DNA of 64,000 nucleotides from Flaccisagitta enflata (GCA_965153355.1 OZ231126.1:1860001-1924000); one strand, 5' to 3'. Positions 17,801 through 62,800 are shown, counted from the first letter of the stretch. The notes: generated by a model not told the origin, from the sequence alone. Program-made: numbers and translations.

Positions 17801-20800
17801 CTTAGACTCATTTATTTGTTCATTTATAAATTGATTCATTTGTTCATTTATTCTCAAAGGAGAATTCAAAATTTCCTATATCTGTTGATAAAACAAAAAG
17901 AAACTTATCAACATTTGATTAATTTTGTGTTTTGCGTTCATTCTTTGCTGAATGAATGCACGAAGTCTGGAAAAATCACTTTTATCATGTACTTTTGTAT
18001 CATTGTATGAAAAAATTCAGTATGAATGGAGAAGAGAGGTTGAAAACCGGGCACGCTCATCCTCTGTCGGGCATGCTGAAATTCTGAGGAGCGTGCCCGG
18101 CGTGCACGCTCAACAGAATCACTAAATTAAGGCCTGATAATTTAGGTAAAAAATATTCTCATTTTGATTGTTTTGCTACAATATGCTTAATTTTGTATTT
18201 TTTTGTGGACAAAATCTGTTTAATTAAGCTTAATTTGCATGAAAAATGAGCTCAGTTAACAAAATTCTTCTATGGATTCTTAAATGTTACTTCATGAGCC
18301 ATACAGTGATGTATATTTTTGTTGAATTTGAATCATTAAAAAAATGGCTAGTTCTACCCCTGCCCACTTGACGTTTCTTGACATTTGCCTGCTTGAATTG
18401 ACTATCTTACGCTGCTCAATTTTCCAGATGTCTTCATGTCATTGTCTGTAACATTATTCTCATTTTGTCAGATGTATTCATGTCGTTGTCCACCACATTA
18501 CTCTCATTTTGTCAGATGTATTCATGTCGTTGTCCACAACATCACTCTGATTTTGTCAGATGTATTCATGTTGTTGTCCACGACATTACTATCATTTTGT
18601 CAGATGTATTCAAGTTGTCCACAACATTACTCTCATTTTGTCAGATTTTATGTGTTCTGTGCTGGAAATCTATGTATTCAAGTAATTGTCCACAACATTA
18701 CTCTCATTTTTTCAGATGTAGTCATGTCGTTGTCCACAACATTACTCTCATTTTGTCAGATGTATTCATGTCGTTGTCCACAACATCACTCTTATTTTGT
18801 CAGATATATTCATGTTGTTGTCCAAAACATTACTATCATTTTGTCAGATGTATTCAAGTTGTTGTCCAAAACATTACTATCATTTTGTCAGATGTATTCA
18901 AGTCGTTGTCTACAACATTACTCTCATTTTGTCAGATTTTGTGTGATCTGTGCTGAAATTCTTTGTATTAAAGTTGTTGTCCACAACATTACTCTCATTT
19001 TTTCAGATGTATTCATGTCGTTGTCCACAACATTACTCTCATTTTGTCAGATGTATTCATGTCGTTGTCCACAATATTACTCTCATTTTTTCAGATGTAT
19101 TCATGTCATTGTCAGCCACATAACTCTCATTTTGTCAGATGTATTCATGTCATTGTCCACAATATTACTCTCATTTTGTCAGATGTATTCATGTCGTTGT
19201 CCACAATATTACTCTCATTTTTTCAGATGTATTCATGTCATTGTCAGCCACATAACTCTCATTTTGTCAGATGTATTCATGTCATTGTCCACAATATTAC
19301 TCTCATTTTGTCAGATGTATTCATGTCGTTGTCCACAATATTACTCTCATTTTTTCAGATGTATTCATGTCATTGTCAGCCACATAACTCTCATTTTGTC
19401 AGATGTATTCATGTCATTGTCCACAATATTACTCTCATTTTGTCAGATGTATTCATGTCGTTGTCCACAATATTACTCTCATTTTTTCAGATGTATTCAT
19501 GTCATTGTCAGCCACATAACTCTCATTTTGTCAGATGTATTCATGTCATTGTCCACCATATTACTCTCATTTTGTCAGATGTATTCATGTCGTTGTCCAC
19601 AACATTACTCTCATTTTGTCAGATGTATTCATGTCGTTGTCCACAACATTACTCTCATTTTCTCAGATGTATTCATGTCGTTGTCCACAATATTACTCTC
19701 ATTTTCTCAGATGTATTTATGTCGTTGTCCACAACATCACTCTTATTTTGTCAGATATATTCATGTTGTTGTCCAAAACATTACTCTCATTTTTTCAGAT
19801 GTAGTCATGTCGTTGTCCACAACATTACTCTCATTTTTTCAGATGTATTCATGTCGTTGTCCACAATATTACTCTCATTTTTTCAGATGTATTCATGTCA
19901 TTGTCAGCCACATAACTCTCATTTTGTCAGATGTATTCATGTCATTGTCCACAATATTACTCTCATTTTGTCAGATGTATTCATGTCGTTGTCCACAATA
20001 TTACTCTCATTTTTTCAGATGTATTCATGTCATTGTCAGCCACATAACTCTCATTTTGTCAGATGTATTCATGTCATTGTCCACAATATTACTCTCATTT
20101 TGTCAGATGTATTCATGTCGTTGTCCACAATATTACTCTCATTTTTTCAGATGTATTCATGTCATTGTCAGCCACATTACTCTCATTTTTTCAGATGTAT
20201 TCATGTCATTGTCAGCAACATAACTCACATTTTGTCAGATGTATTCATGTCATTGTCCACAATATTACTCTCATTTTTTCAGATGTATTCATGTCATTGT
20301 CAGCCACATAACTCTCATTTTGTCAGATGTATTCATGTCATTGTCCACAATATTACTCTCATTTTGTCAGATGTATTCATGTCGTTGTCCACAACATTAC
20401 TCTCATTTTGTCAGATGTATTCATGTCGTTGTCCACAACATTACTCTCATTTTCTCAGATGTATTCATGTCGTTGTCCACAATATTACTCTCATTTTCTC
20501 AGATGTATTTATGTCGTTGTCCACCACATTACTCTCATTTTGTCAGATGTAGTCATGTCGTTGTCCACAACATCACTCTTATTTTGTCAGATATATTCAT
20601 GTTGTTGTCCAAAACATTACTCTCATTTTTTCAGATGTAGTCATGTCGTTGTCCACAACATTACTCTCATTTTTTCAGATGTATTCATGTCGTTGTCCAC
20701 AATATTACTCTCATTTTTTCAGATGTATTCATGTCATTGTCAGCCACATAACTCTCATTTTGTCAGATGTATTCATGTCGTTGTCGAACACATTACGTCG

Positions 20801-59800: not shown

Positions 59801-62800
59801 AGATTAATTAATGATTATCAAGAAGATCCCTGACCCGTTACCAGCACAGAAGTAATAGGGAGCATTGTGTTGTGCTTCGCCGATGAAACATCTCTCTCTC
59901 TCTCTCTCTCTCTCTTTCCTCCCTTCTCTCCCCTCTTTATTTGGCGAAGGATTCATTTATTTACGCGCACGGCTAAGGTTCACGGCTTGCGTTCATTAAG
60001 CAGCTTCTTCGCGCGCGGTTTCTTAGCGCTCATTAATGTTTTCAAAGATGATGGACCTCATTTCTGAAGAATTAAGCGAAACAGACCTTGGTTTCAAGAT
60101 AGACATAGACTTTATCATTGCAGTCTTACTCTGGGTAGACGACGTCATCACTTGCGTCGAAGGGAAAGCTGATCAAAAACAAGTCTTGAAAATGATAAAT
60201 GAGTTCGCTATCAAACATAAATTAAAATGGGGTCAAGCCAAGTGCAATGTTATGAAAGTCGGGAAACACAAACAAGAAGCGGAAGAGTGGAAGTTAGGGG
60301 AAATGGTGATAGAAGAAACAAATAAGTACAAATATCTTGGCGACATTATAACCGCAAATGGAAAAAATACGGAAAATATTCAAAACAGAAACGTAAAATT
60401 AAAAGCTACTACTATCAACATCAATACCATTGCCTCTAGTGAAATATTATTCAGAATAGAAACATCTGTACTTCTTGAAATGCATGACAAACGCTGCATT
60501 ACTGGCCTACTAAACAATTCCGAATCTTGGCATCTGTTAAAAAAAGAGGAACAACAATTTGAAAAAATGGAAATTAGAGCCATTAAATATTTATTCGACC
60601 TCCCACTCCACACGCCGACTGTCGCAATCATATTTTCATTTGGACTACTTTTTACCACACAACGAATTGATATGAAACAGTTAATCTATTTACAAAAAAT
60701 TTTAAGGGAGGAAGAGAATGACAATTTGAAAAGATCCTTGAAGGTCCTCGAAGCAAAAAACATTGGCTGGTATAAGAAGATCGTACAAAGCCTACAAAAA
60801 TACGACTTACCAACGGATTTTTCCATCATTGCATCCATACCACCAAAAAGATGGGAAAACACCGTCAAATTTGTCATTGAACGAAAAAATAAGGAAAGGA
60901 TCATGGACGAACTGCACAAAACTGAGAACGACGTAAAAATACCGAAGACAAAGACAAAGACTATTGTAGACAAACTAAAAGATCCTTACTATACACGTCA
61001 ACCAGAAAGCGAAATCATACACACAACAAAAAATGAAACAAAGACAATCATGATCGCTAGATACGGAATGCTCGAGTGTGGACGGAATTTTAAAGGAAAA
61101 ATGCCACTTATATGCGCAACTTGCGGTATTAAAGACGACGAAAGTCATAGACTGAATGTATGTCCCAAATGGGCGATAGACGCGACAACCTTGCCTAGAC
61201 AAATTGTTTTTAATCTGATCTATGAAAAAGATATTGATATCATTCGCCCTATTCTCGCTGAAATCAACTTAATATGGAACACAAAATGTTCAAACGGGAC
61301 CATGGTAACGAAATAACCACTCATTGTTCTCGTTCTCTCTCTCTCTCTCTCTCTCTCTCTCTCTCTCTCTCTCTCTCTCTCTCTCTCTCTCTCTCTCTCT
61401 CTCTCTCTCTCTATATTCCCCCCTAATTATTTATTGTTGTTAATTCTATTATTTATCATCGTACTTGTGTACGGCTCATTAACGAATTTGTTAAATGTGA
61501 TGAATGCACATATTGAGCATTACAATCAATCAATCAATCAATTAAGCAGTTCTTCCACTTAGCAGAGTAAATCAAAAGTCAGTTGGTAGTTGAGTAAGGA
61601 TTGAAAGCCGTTTTAAAATAGTTTCCCATCGAAGCTGGATTTAGATATAGAAAAAATATCATAACTTCTAAACTATTGAAGATATTGACTTGAAATTTAA
61701 TGTACGCACTCGCGTGACCATCGCGGACATTCAGGCTGAAGAGGAACAGGGTTTATTTTTCGCTATCTAGCTTGGGAAAGTTGATACATTTTGGGGGCAG
61801 AATGGGACTACGCATGAAATTAATAGCTAAGAAAGAGCTAATTCTCCTCTTTCAGATGACACCAAGCATAATTCTGTGCGATCAATAGTTTTGGAGTTAT
61901 GATTTTTTAAATCTTTTTTTATTTTTTTGCATTTTTTGTGGTTTCCCAAAAACCGAGGAATCGAATCTATTTGAACCTTTGAAATGTCCCATCCTGGCGG
62001 CACAGTGTCTCTCCCCTTTCAACTCCGGACTCTATGAGAGGCTTTGTTTGTCAGTCCATCCATTAGTCTGTTGGTCCGTCTGTCCGTCCAAGAGGAAAAA
62101 AAAGTGGTCTAGATGCTTGTGTGTGGGGATTGGGGTGTGGATGGGCGTTGGATGCCCTTGTCCACCTGTCCACAACGTAACCCTGTGTTCCTTGTTTTTC
62201 TCTGTTTCTTTCTCTGTCTCTTTCTCCCCCTCTGTCTGTCTGTCTGTCTCTCTCTCTCTCTCTCTCTCTCAGCATTTACGACTTTTTTCCTACGGCGATT
62301 AGCCGCCTTTATTGGGACATTTCTTAGATTGCCACAGAAGACAGCTATACAGGACAATACAGTAACGTCCACTTTGTCAACCATATTTGCATTTTTACAG
62401 ATTGCCACAGAGGAAAACCCGGATTTCTGTTGGGAAAACAAAAGGACAATTTCATTTGGAAAGAAAAGCAACTGAAACAAGGTGCATTATTCAGTAATTG
62501 ATTTGATTGGCAGCGCTCGTTATCACTTTTCAGGTTATGATTTACGTGGATGGTTGAAGTCTGCTGAGTTTTCATTCTTTTATTTATGGATGAGCAACTC
62601 TATTAGGAGCTTAGTGCTTCGGTCCATTCGTTAATCCGTAGTGCTCGAGTTAAAAAGTGTAGATATGTACATTTTCACTCCCCCTTCCCCTTTTTTAGGT
62701 GTGACAAATCACCTCTATAACTGGCCGTGTCCGTTGGTTGGTCTGTCTGTCGGTCGGTTGGTCTGTAACGCATTCGTTCGACGATCCACACGTCGCACCT

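What the first reader, a model, noticed from the sequence alone, without database searches (positions are those of the whole stretch)
18421..62481. Splice sites themselves are tandemly amplified at >=9 exon boundaries of one gene
Seen: unrelated tandem repeats whose unit includes both exon edge and adjacent intron occur at exon 6 acceptor (44 bp x~54), exon 6 donor (91 bp x2.5), exon 9 acceptor (x2), exon 11 donor (90 bp x4), exon 17 donor, exon 22 donor (39 bp x9), exon 26 acceptor (~110 bp x3), exon 28 donor (11-12 bp x4) and exon 31 acceptor (~72 bp x3). Most non-TE minisatellites in the window are of this kind, and they extend into the intron. In the arrays I translated (exon 6 acceptor; exon 11, 22 and 28 donors) only the exon-adjacent copy keeps the ORF. 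Inference: either a mutational process biased to exon-intron junctions (e.g. splicing- or R-loop-coupled repair, or rolling-circle re-integration), or exon-definition splicing that tolerates or uses arrays of decoy sites (tunable NMD, recursive splicing). Tandem duplication of splice-site sequence is an established proposed route to intron gain; I do not know of it being described at this density.
Basis: partly seen in the sequence, partly recalled or inferred. Interest (0 to 1): 0.88.

Follow-up and report, generated by a model that had tools for sequence, protein, structure and literature searches.

The report
Minisatellites that copy splice junctions ("mirages")
Several tandem repeats in this marine-animal gene region are built from a piece of exon plus the adjoining intron, so splice sites are repeated many times; the same thing has been described in lancelet genes under the name "mirages", so this looks like a rich new example of a known but unexplained oddity.

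Summary
The tandem arrays are real. Tandem repeats cover 21% of the window. I located 7 of the 9 claimed arrays. In each, the unit joins an ORF edge to the adjoining intron with its AG or GT.

Only exon 6 has outside support as coding: all 33 PDB hits were EGF-like, best E 0.0039. It carries a 44-bp array of about 53 units on its acceptor and a 92-bp array of 2.5 units on its donor. The other five exons are unverified. The "exon 9" and "exon 31" arrays were not found. "One 31-exon gene" is doubtful.

The phenomenon is in print. "Mirages" are minisatellite-like duplications of intron/exon boundaries in lancelet Adh3, globin, TnC and PGBD5 genes (PMC3087553, PMC3902484). Human F7 has a comparable donor repeat (PMC1557585). 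The organism here is unknown.

Best reading: ordinary minisatellite turnover seeded by a junction-spanning duplication, tolerated by splice-site choice. Enrichment at junctions is suggestive only (expected 1.7 or 6.3, depending on the null, against 7 found).

Verdict: new member of a known kind, moderate interest.

The parts
13359..13471 (+). Exon 5: first part of an EGF-like module (...GYTGKHCE..CDVKEACLNGGTCIDL...), acceptor gatcag|, donor GAG|GTAAAT
   Evidence: Sequence read. Weak Pfam EGF/hEGF matches (E 0.006-0.007) for ORF 13355-13492. Phase 0 at its end matches the phase-0 start of exon 6.
18425..20796 (+). Acceptor-side junction array: 44-bp unit made of 14 nt of intron end (branch-like CTCAT, TTTTGT, CAG) plus the first 30 nt of exon 6. 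About 53 units in three blocks; the last unit is the real exon start.
   Evidence: TRF. 42 units in perfect register from 18949; 40 of 41 non-exon units keep CAG|AT; 18 distinct unit sequences; mean identity to consensus 93%. The exon-adjacent unit has private states and there is no distance gradient.
20767..20882 (+). Exon 6 (116 nt): MYSCRCRTHYVGKRCENKMPTDCETAIMLYGITSDEVY..., the last part of an EGF-like module plus the start of the next domain
   Evidence: All 33 PDB hits were EGF-like modules (laminin EGF, spitz, EGF, neuregulin, Notch), best E 0.0039. Weak Pfam EGF_TEN match, E 0.011. Sequence read.
20855..21101 (+). Donor-side junction array: 92-bp unit made of the last 11-28 nt of exon 6, GTAAGG and about 80 nt of intron; 2.5 units. 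Copy 2 has lost the GT (GATAAGG); copy 3 has GTATGG.
   Evidence: TRF 20872-21101. Self-BLAST 20855-21009 against 20947-21101, 84.5% identity. Copies printed.
14751..16610 (+). LINE reverse-transcriptase ORF (619 codons, open) inside the 7.3-kb intron between exons 5 and 6
   Evidence: ORF list. 1104 relatives at E<=1e-20; the best is 99% identical; Pfam RVT_1 plus endonuclease domains in the full-length relatives.
24552..24705 (+). AAAACAG|GTGATGG. Unverified as coding.
   Evidence: Sequence read. ORF 24552-24716 gave no Pfam hit and no PDB hit. Unique within the window.
24670..25026 (+). Donor-side array on the candidate exon: 86-90-bp unit made of about 36-45 nt of ORF end, GT and about 45 nt of intron; 4 units. 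Units 2-4 carry a 4-nt GGTG insertion at the junction.
   Evidence: TRF, self-BLAST, alignment A1 with 87% mean column identity.
33509..33627 (+). Candidate exon ending ACAACAG|GTGAAT. Unverified.
   Evidence: Sequence read; ORF 33509-33628.
33610..33697 (+). 10/30-bp array (TATACAACAG..) that starts 18 nt inside the candidate exon and repeats CAG|GTGAAT twice and CAG|GTATAC once.
   Evidence: TRF; sequence read.
36436..36552 (+). Exon with a fibrinogen-related-domain signature (..DDYKYGFGNPFFDYFVGN..), acceptor tatccag|, donor CA|GTGAGT. No array on either junction.
   Evidence: All 9 PDB hits were angiopoietin-1/-2 fibrinogen-like domains, at the same domain position, E 0.17-0.53. Sequence read.
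37668..37853 (+). It contains an in-frame 9-bp repeat (37767-37802, NPT x3-4).
   Evidence: Sequence read; ORF. No supporting PDB or Pfam hit. A fibrinogen-like reading of the WWF..C motif is my recall only.
37829..38178 (+). Donor-side array: 39-bp unit made of 25 nt of ORF end plus GTATGT.. (14 nt); 9 units, 8 with GG|GTA. Reading on from the exon meets in-frame stops in units 2 and 4.
   Evidence: TRF; units printed; read-through translation.
41429..41727 (+). Acceptor-side array: 107-113-bp unit made of about 60 nt of intron end (..ttactcatttcatcgacag) plus about 50 nt of ORF start; 3 copies, the first the most diverged.
   Evidence: TRF 41511-41727; self-BLAST 41429-41614 against 41536-41727, 82% identity; sequence read.
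41682..41817 (+). Unverified.
   Evidence: Sequence read. No Pfam hit and no PDB hit.
52288..52396 (+). Unverified. A candidate exon 27 lies at 52150-52212.
   Evidence: Sequence read. No Pfam hit and no PDB hit.
52392..52436 (+). Donor-side micro-array: 11-bp unit ACTAG|GTAATA x4 (5 nt of ORF end plus 6 nt of intron)
   Evidence: TRF; sequence read.

Best explanation
These are 'mirage'-type minisatellites: tandem arrays whose founding duplication happened to span an exon-intron junction.

Shown:
- Each array ends in a unit that is the exon edge itself, and the other units lie on the intron side.
- The 44-bp array has been homogenised internally, while the exon-adjacent unit keeps private states.

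Inferred:
- A short junction-spanning tandem duplication arose by replication slippage or microhomology-mediated repair, in a genome region where a fifth of the DNA is tandem repeat.
- Unequal exchange and gene conversion then expanded and homogenised it.
- The gene survives because the spliceosome keeps using the exon-proximal site. That is the first donor, as shown experimentally for the human F7 intron-7 repeat, or the last acceptor. The extra sites are silent or yield unproductive RNA.
- Duplications inside exons are purged, and purely intronic arrays decay. The constrained exon edge keeps a template alive. Junction arrays are therefore over-represented among the arrays still recognisable.
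- No dedicated function is needed.
For: Anatomy of 7 arrays: unit = ORF edge + AG or GT + intron, with the terminal unit continuous with the ORF.

Exon 6 is a real EGF-type coding exon (33 of 33 PDB hits) and has arrays on both junctions.

Internal homogenisation of the 44-bp array: only 18 distinct sequences among 42 units, and one variant is present 8 times. The exon-adjacent unit's three differences from the array consensus are shared by 0, 2 and 11 of the 41 other units, and there is no gradient with distance (Spearman -0.01). This matches the pattern reported for lancelet globin mirages: concerted evolution within clusters, with boundary units excluded (PMC3087553, passage read).

The locus is very rich in tandem repeats: 21% of bases, and 63 merged arrays in the range.

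Units are not copies of a dispersed element: 0 hits elsewhere in the window for the 92-, 90-, 39- and 11-bp units. All candidate exons are unique in the window.

Published precedent: mirages in lancelet Adh3, globin, TnC and PGBD5 do not disturb splicing and vary in copy number between haplotypes or assemblies. For F7, the first of several identical donors is chosen by 5'-to-3' scanning (abstract).
Against: The pseudo-acceptors next to exon 6 look at least as good as the real one (tttttcag against tttgtcag), so the silence of 40 upstream acceptors is assumed, not explained.

If the exon calls are right, junction arrays exceed the unit-origin expectation (7 found against 1.7 expected). A purely neutral model needs the survivorship argument to absorb that excess, and I did not test it.

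Five of the seven exons have no outside support.

The gene could be decaying, in which case tolerance by splicing is irrelevant.
Confidence: 0.55

Rival explanations
1. A mutational process is biased to exon-intron junctions of transcribed genes. Candidates are repair or template switching coupled to transcription or splicing, or polypyrimidine tracts stalling replication. On this view junction-spanning duplications arise more often than elsewhere.
For: If the exon calls are accepted, 7 located arrays compare with 1.7 expected under a unit-origin null (P about 0.002). Exon 22's place in that set rests on a motif I recalled, which no search confirmed. Both ends of one exon are affected. By my sorting, 6 of 13 non-dispersed arrays with units of 25 bp or more are of this type. 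The authors of the lancelet work call the mechanism unclear.
Against: The exon calls were made with the arrays in view, and most are unverified. A whole-array placement null expects 6.3 overlaps. 33 of the 40 arrays with units of 9 bp or more are not at any candidate junction. There is no genome to test. Donor-side arrays have no polypyrimidine tract to invoke.
Confidence: 0.17
2. The arrays are functional splicing devices. They could be decoy or recursive splice sites, or clusters of U1/U2AF binding sites, that tune exon definition, NMD-coupled expression or protection of long TE-filled introns.
For: Splice motifs are retained in most units: 40 of 41 acceptors and 8 of 9 donors. The arrays flank very long, TE-rich introns.
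Against: The units are young (86-93% identity), so motif retention needs no selection. In one array 1 of 9 donors is already lost, and in the 92-bp array the GT of copy 2 is lost. Published mirages are length-unstable and leave mRNA unchanged. There is no RNA evidence here.
Confidence: 0.07
3. Most of the pattern is over-reading. These are ordinary minisatellites in a repeat-rich, partly decayed locus, and a reader saw exon edges because any unit with AG or GT next to an open frame looks like one. Alternatively, some arrays are assembly artefacts.
For: Two claimed arrays could not be found. Five candidate exons have no homology support. A fibrinogen-related domain usually ends a protein (my recall), so exons '26-31' probably belong to another gene or to none. 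The 3' end of the range is TE-like. The whole-array null expects 6.3 overlaps. AGGT-containing units also occur in dispersed arrays at 6831-6940 and 8387-8660.
Against: At exon 6 the coding identity is independent of the arrays, and both arrays demonstrably contain exon sequence. The arrays hold diverged units with higher-order structure, unlike collapse or expansion artefacts.
Confidence: 0.2

Closest known systems
[quoted passage not shown] Sources: Ebner et al. 2010, PMC3087553, passages read; Pavelitz et al. 2013, PMC3902484, passages read. The founding paper, Canestro et al. 2002 (Nucleic Acids Res 30:2871), is not held and is known to me only through these citations.
   Same: The unit spans an exon edge plus intron and carries AG or GT. 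Both 5' and 3' boundaries can be affected. Unit sizes overlap (published 10-160 bp; here 11-113 bp). Several arrays can occur per gene. Units within an array are homogenised while the boundary unit stands apart. The same link to intron gain has been proposed.
   Different: The host organism is unidentified and may not be a lancelet. The LINE relatives are all in unnamed environmental assemblies. One array has about 53 units (2.4 kb), far more than the 2-7 copies quoted in the passages I read. Normal splicing and copy-number polymorphism, shown for lancelet genes, are untested here.
Human F7 intron 7: a 37-bp VNTR whose first unit spans the exon 7 donor (Borensztajn et al. 2006, PMC1557585; abstract read)
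   Same: A donor-side minisatellite whose first unit is the authentic junction, followed by identical pseudo-donors. This is a direct model for the 39-, 90-, 92- and 11-bp arrays.
   Different: A single locus in a mammal. Selection of the most upstream donor has been shown experimentally there and not here. It offers no counterpart for acceptor-side arrays.
Intron gain by tandem genomic duplication across an AGGT site (Rogers' model). It is cited in PMC3087553. Examples appeared only as search listings: PMC3265369, PMC2891723, PMC4974935.
   Same: Duplication of a segment carrying splice signals creates paired sites that could define a new intron.
   Different: Here the duplications sit at existing junctions and extend into existing introns. 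No new intron is shown, and the copy numbers are far above two.

Membership tests
Mirage (junction-spanning minisatellite) | Head-to-tail tandem array of units of roughly 10-160 bp | tested here: met
   TRF and self-BLAST: 44 bp x about 53, 92 x2.5, 90 x3.6-4, 39 x9, 113 x3, 11 x4, 10/30 x2.9.
Mirage (junction-spanning minisatellite) | The unit contains both exon sequence and the adjoining intron with its AG or GT | tested here: met
   Met at both ends of exon 6, whose coding identity is independent of the arrays (units). For the other five arrays the anatomy fits, but the exons are unverified (negative searches).
Mirage (junction-spanning minisatellite) | The authentic junction is the terminal unit next to the exon, and the extra copies lie in the intron | tested here: met
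   Acceptor arrays extend upstream and donor arrays downstream. Read-through of the donor arrays meets stops.
Mirage (junction-spanning minisatellite) | The mRNA is spliced normally and the duplicated sites are not used | not testable with these tools
Mirage (junction-spanning minisatellite) | Copy number is unstable between haplotypes or individuals | not testable with these tools
   No genome or second haplotype is held.
Mirage (junction-spanning minisatellite) | Concerted evolution inside the array, with boundary units excluded | tested here: met
   44-bp array: 18 distinct sequences among 42 units. The exon-adjacent unit's three private states are shared by 0, 2 and 11 of 41 units. No distance gradient.
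Mirage (junction-spanning minisatellite) | Known so far only from cephalochordates (a distribution, not a definition) | tested here: inconclusive
   The taxon was not identified. The top 120 LINE relatives come only from ENA, Logan or JGI environmental assemblies without names. There were no Rfam or tRNA markers.
F7-type donor VNTR | The first unit spans the exon-donor boundary and pseudo-donors follow | tested here: met
   39-bp array, 8 of 9 units with GG|GTA. The 90-, 92- and 11-bp arrays also fit.
F7-type donor VNTR | The most upstream donor is selected by 5'-to-3' scanning | not testable with these tools
Intron gain by tandem duplication (Rogers) | Two duplicated copies of an exonic AGGT segment bracket a newly created intron, with both exon halves kept in the mRNA | tested here: inconclusive
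   All arrays abut junctions that already separate recognisable domain parts. For example, exons 5 and 6 share one EGF module. No new intron can be shown without RNA or an orthologue.

The most novel reading that the evidence does not exclude
The host is not a lancelet, and junction-spanning minisatellites are strongly and strand-specifically enriched across its genome. Mirages would then reflect a general transcription- or splicing-coupled duplication process, or a selected use of splice-site arrays, rather than a lancelet curiosity. A new long-read genome with matching RNA-seq would make that directly testable.
Probability: 0.15. Interest if true: 0.7.

Novelty: new member of a known kind. 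Interest (0 to 1): 0.4.

Why it matters
Mirages were described gene by gene more than a decade ago. In the library I could search they are named in only two papers. I found no genome-wide study and no accepted mechanism.

This locus packs at least two secure junction arrays and up to seven likely ones into about 34 kb. One has about 53 tandem acceptor sites. That makes it a useful natural test of how a spliceosome ignores dozens of good-looking sites.

It also bears on whether junction duplications feed intron gain. If the host proves to be outside the cephalochordates, the phenomenon is broader than thought.

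Tried and rejected
The small shares say nothing about habitat or expression.

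Whole genome: none is held.

Homologues of the gene:
- The search for homologous proteins with exon 6 and with the 36.4-kb exon, 'longer' mode: no candidates.
- Exact 28-mer of exon 6 in metagenome contigs: 0 matches.
- The search for related loci with the exon-22 peptide: one locus, L001, which is a bacterial PAS/histidine-kinase ORF and a chance match.

Domain searches:
- Pfam on 20 ORFs gave only weak EGF hits.
- PDB searches of the exon-11, 37421-37612, exon-22, exon-26 and exon-27/28 ORFs gave nothing, or spurious FtsX and eS19 matches.
- A long-frame PDB query was rejected because of stop codons.

Paralogous exons: self-BLASTP of + strand ORFs found only dispersed TE-like repeats.

A GGGWWY motif at about 32.03 kb tempted me as a fibrinogen-like exon. 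It lies about 170 bp beyond a dispersed repeat (31628-31852) and has no Pfam hit, so I dropped it.

A candidate C-terminal exon at about 40.72 kb has no AG in front of it, so I dropped that too.

Taxon: no Rfam or tRNA markers, and the LINE relatives are unnamed.

Earlier scan notes: nothing for this genome, and only unrelated items by keyword.

Canestro 2002 could not be read. Supplementary files of the lancelet papers (unit alignments and trees) were not consulted.

Full report
**What is in the window.** The window is repeat-rich animal-like DNA with 34-46% G+C. TRF reports 146 rows covering 13,396 of 64,000 bases (21%). In the finding's range, 9,787 of 44,061 bases are covered, in 63 merged arrays, 40 of which have a unit of 9 bp or more. 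Dispersed repeats cover a further 16,862 bases. They include LINE reverse-transcriptase ORFs at 14751-16610 (+), 10761-12008 (-) and 60027-61316 (+). No whole genome is held.

**The gene.**
- On the + strand, exon 5 (13359-13471) and exon 6 (20767-20882) together spell one EGF-like module, and their splice phases match.
- The exon 6 ORF hits only EGF-like modules in the PDB: 33 of 33 hits, best E 0.0039. Pfam gives weak EGF matches for both exons.
- A further exon at 36436-36552 hits only angiopoietin-1/-2 fibrinogen-like domains, all at one domain position: 9 of 9 hits, but E is only 0.17-0.53.
- The gene is therefore probably an EGF plus fibrinogen-related gene with long, TE-filled introns.
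- Every other exon I discuss is a candidate defined only by an open frame between a plausible acceptor and donor. Pfam and PDB searches of these ORFs found nothing meaningful.
- A fibrinogen-related domain normally ends a protein (my recall). The phase at the end of candidate exon '26' does not fit the start of '27' (my reading). The last kilobases of the range are TE-like. A single 31-exon gene is therefore doubtful.

**The arrays.** I located seven of the nine claimed.

1. Exon 6 acceptor (18425-20796).
   - The unit is 14 nt of intron end plus the first 30 nt of the exon.
   - 42 units run in perfect 44-bp register into the exon, and two more blocks lie upstream.
   - 40 of the 41 non-exon units keep CAG|AT.
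   - There are 18 distinct unit sequences, one of them present 8 times.
2. Exon 6 donor (20855-21101). The unit is 92 bp: the exon's last 11-28 nt, then GTAAGG and intron. There are 2.5 units. Copy 2 has lost the GT.
3. Candidate exon '11' donor (24670-25026). Four units of 86-90 bp, each holding about 36-45 nt of ORF end plus GT.
4. A 10/30-bp array (33610-33697). It starts 18 nt inside a candidate exon and repeats CAG|GTGAAT.
5. Candidate exon '22' donor (37829-38178). Nine 39-bp units of 25 nt ORF end plus GTATGT. Eight of the nine keep the donor. Reading on from the exon meets in-frame stops in units 2 and 4.
6. Candidate exon '26' acceptor (41429-41727). Three copies of 107-113 bp, each holding ..cgacag plus about 50 nt of ORF start.
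7. Candidate exon '28' donor (52392-52436). ACTAG|GTAATA x4.

The 'exon 9 acceptor x2' and 'exon 31 acceptor ~72 bp x3' arrays were not found, either by TRF at score 30 or by self-BLAST for offsets of 20-400 bp.

The 92-, 90-, 39- and 11-bp units have no other copy in the window. All candidate exons lie in unique sequence. The arrays are therefore not pieces of a dispersed element.

**Is it more than chance?** Two nulls give different answers.
- Unit-origin null: each of the 40 arrays began as a unit-sized duplication dropped at random in the non-repeat part of the range. For four exons I counted as supported (8 junctions), 0.26 are expected against 3. One of those four is exon '22', whose support is only a motif I recalled.
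- Whole-array null: finished arrays are placed at random. 6.3 would overlap one of 52 junctions.

The exon calls were also made with the arrays in view. I therefore call the enrichment suggestive, not shown.

'Most non-TE minisatellites are of this kind' is an overstatement. The figure is 7 of 40 arrays with units of 9 bp or more. By my own sorting, it is 6 of 13 non-dispersed arrays with units of 25 bp or more.

**Array dynamics.**
- Units of the 44-bp array are on average 93% identical to their consensus.
- The exon-adjacent unit differs from that consensus at three exon positions. Its states there are shared by 0, 2 and 11 of the 41 other units.
- Similarity to the exon copy shows no gradient with distance.
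- So the array is homogenised internally while its boundary unit stands apart.
- Exon-derived positions of the units differ from the exon copy more than intron-derived ones do (0.146 against 0.056 per site).

**What is known.** A full-text search led to two precedents.
- Lancelet 'mirages'. Ebner et al. [quoted passage not shown] They trace the term to the Adh3 locus (units of 10-72 bp). They report:
  - both 5' and 3' boundaries can be affected;
  - many units keep AG/GT;
  - splicing is normal by RT-PCR;
  - copy number differs between haplotypes;
  - clusters evolve in concert, with boundary units excluded;
  - the mechanism is unclear;
  - such arrays could seed intron gain.
- Pavelitz et al. 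2013 (PMC3902484; passages read) add lancelet PGBD5. It has 60-bp and 108-bp repeats at splice sites, with 2 against 7 and 3 against 6 copies in two assemblies. They also cite troponin C.
- Human F7. Borensztajn et al. 2006 (PMC1557585; abstract read) show that in human F7 the first unit of a 37-bp repeat spans the exon 7 donor. The most upstream of the identical donors is chosen by 5'-to-3' scanning.

The founding Adh3 paper is not held. Searches for 'mirages' and for genome-wide treatments found only these two lancelet papers and no genome-wide survey. The supplements of these papers were not seen.

**Which organism?** Unknown.
- The LINE ORF has 1104 relatives at E<=1e-20. The best is 99% identical. 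All 120 listed come from ENA, Logan or JGI environmental assemblies, and none carries an informative name.
- Rfam and tRNA scans found nothing.
- The RNA runs offered were two marine metatranscriptomes and one polyA run of a coded organism.
- A lancelet is possible, but so is another marine animal.

**How it most likely works.** A short tandem duplication spanning a junction arose in a region prone to tandem repeats. Unequal exchange and conversion then expanded and homogenised it. This part is inferred, and the unit patterns are consistent with it.

The gene tolerates it because the exon-proximal site is used. For donors this has published experimental backing in F7. For acceptors it is inferred, and it is the weakest step: the neighbouring pseudo-acceptors look as good as the real one.

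Duplications inside exons would be purged, while the constrained exon edge keeps a template for the array. That could explain an excess at junctions without any special mutational process. I give this reading 0.55.

The rivals are:
- a junction-biased mutational process (0.17);
- functional decoy arrays (0.07);
- over-reading of exons or artefact (0.2).

**What could not be done.** No splice site, expression level or use of internal copies is therefore known. Copy-number variation and genome-wide enrichment need data that are not held.

**Verdict.** The count and the gene model are inflated. The phenomenon is a new, dense example of lancelet-type 'mirages', a known kind with an unknown mechanism. 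It is of moderate interest. Interest would be higher if the host is not a lancelet or if a genome-wide excess is shown.

Noticed in passing
window 14751-16610 (+): An open 619-codon LINE reverse-transcriptase ORF sits in the intron between exons 5 and 6. A 977-aa protein in an environmental assembly is 99% identical, which suggests a recently active element that is common in marine environmental data.
   Followed up: partly
window 37767-37802 (+): An in-frame 9-bp repeat (CAACCCGAC x3.9, reading NPT NPT NPT) lies inside candidate exon '22', just upstream of the 39-bp donor array. It would be a coding tandem repeat if the exon is real.
   Followed up: no
window 62884-63540 (+): A 218-codon ORF at the window's end has a hydrophobic, signal-peptide-like stretch (VCLFVCLF...) encoded by a (TGTT)18 microsatellite. 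A Cys-containing region follows (..LDCSTKSDGIYPL..). It is probably the first exon of a neighbouring gene. Pfam found nothing.
   Followed up: partly
window 4290-5960 (+): A 556-codon ORF starting ..MADENLSNLE.. is largely built from in-frame coding minisatellites: 15 bp x21 reading RHGGD/E, plus 30-bp and 27-bp units. It is followed by a 610-bp (GTT)n tract. The first 203 residues gave no Pfam hit.
   Followed up: partly
window 36649-37028 (+): A telomere-like TTAGGG-derived array (36775-36871) lies between two 55-bp direct repeats that are 98% identical (36649-36703 and 36974-37028). This sits just downstream of the fibrinogen-like exon. It could be an insertion with long target duplications or a 325-bp tandem duplication.
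   Followed up: no
window 6831-6940 and 8387-8660 (+): Two arrays of the same 45-bp unit lie about 1.45 kb apart in the same orientation. The unit contains CCAG|GTACG and CGAG|GTGTCG. So AGGT-bearing units also occur in arrays that have no obvious exon.
   Followed up: no
window 28539-28768 and 30818-31298: Two arrays of one 54-bp G-rich family (GTAGCGGCA..GAGGTGTAGGGGCATGATTTG) lie 2 kb apart. On the minus strand they read as a long proline-rich open frame (254 codons, 30748-31512).
   Followed up: no
window 18397-20552 (+): The 44-bp unit has no stop triplet in any + strand frame, so the array is open for 608 and 526 codons in two frames. By my rough estimate this would happen by chance in about one unit in eight.
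   Followed up: partly
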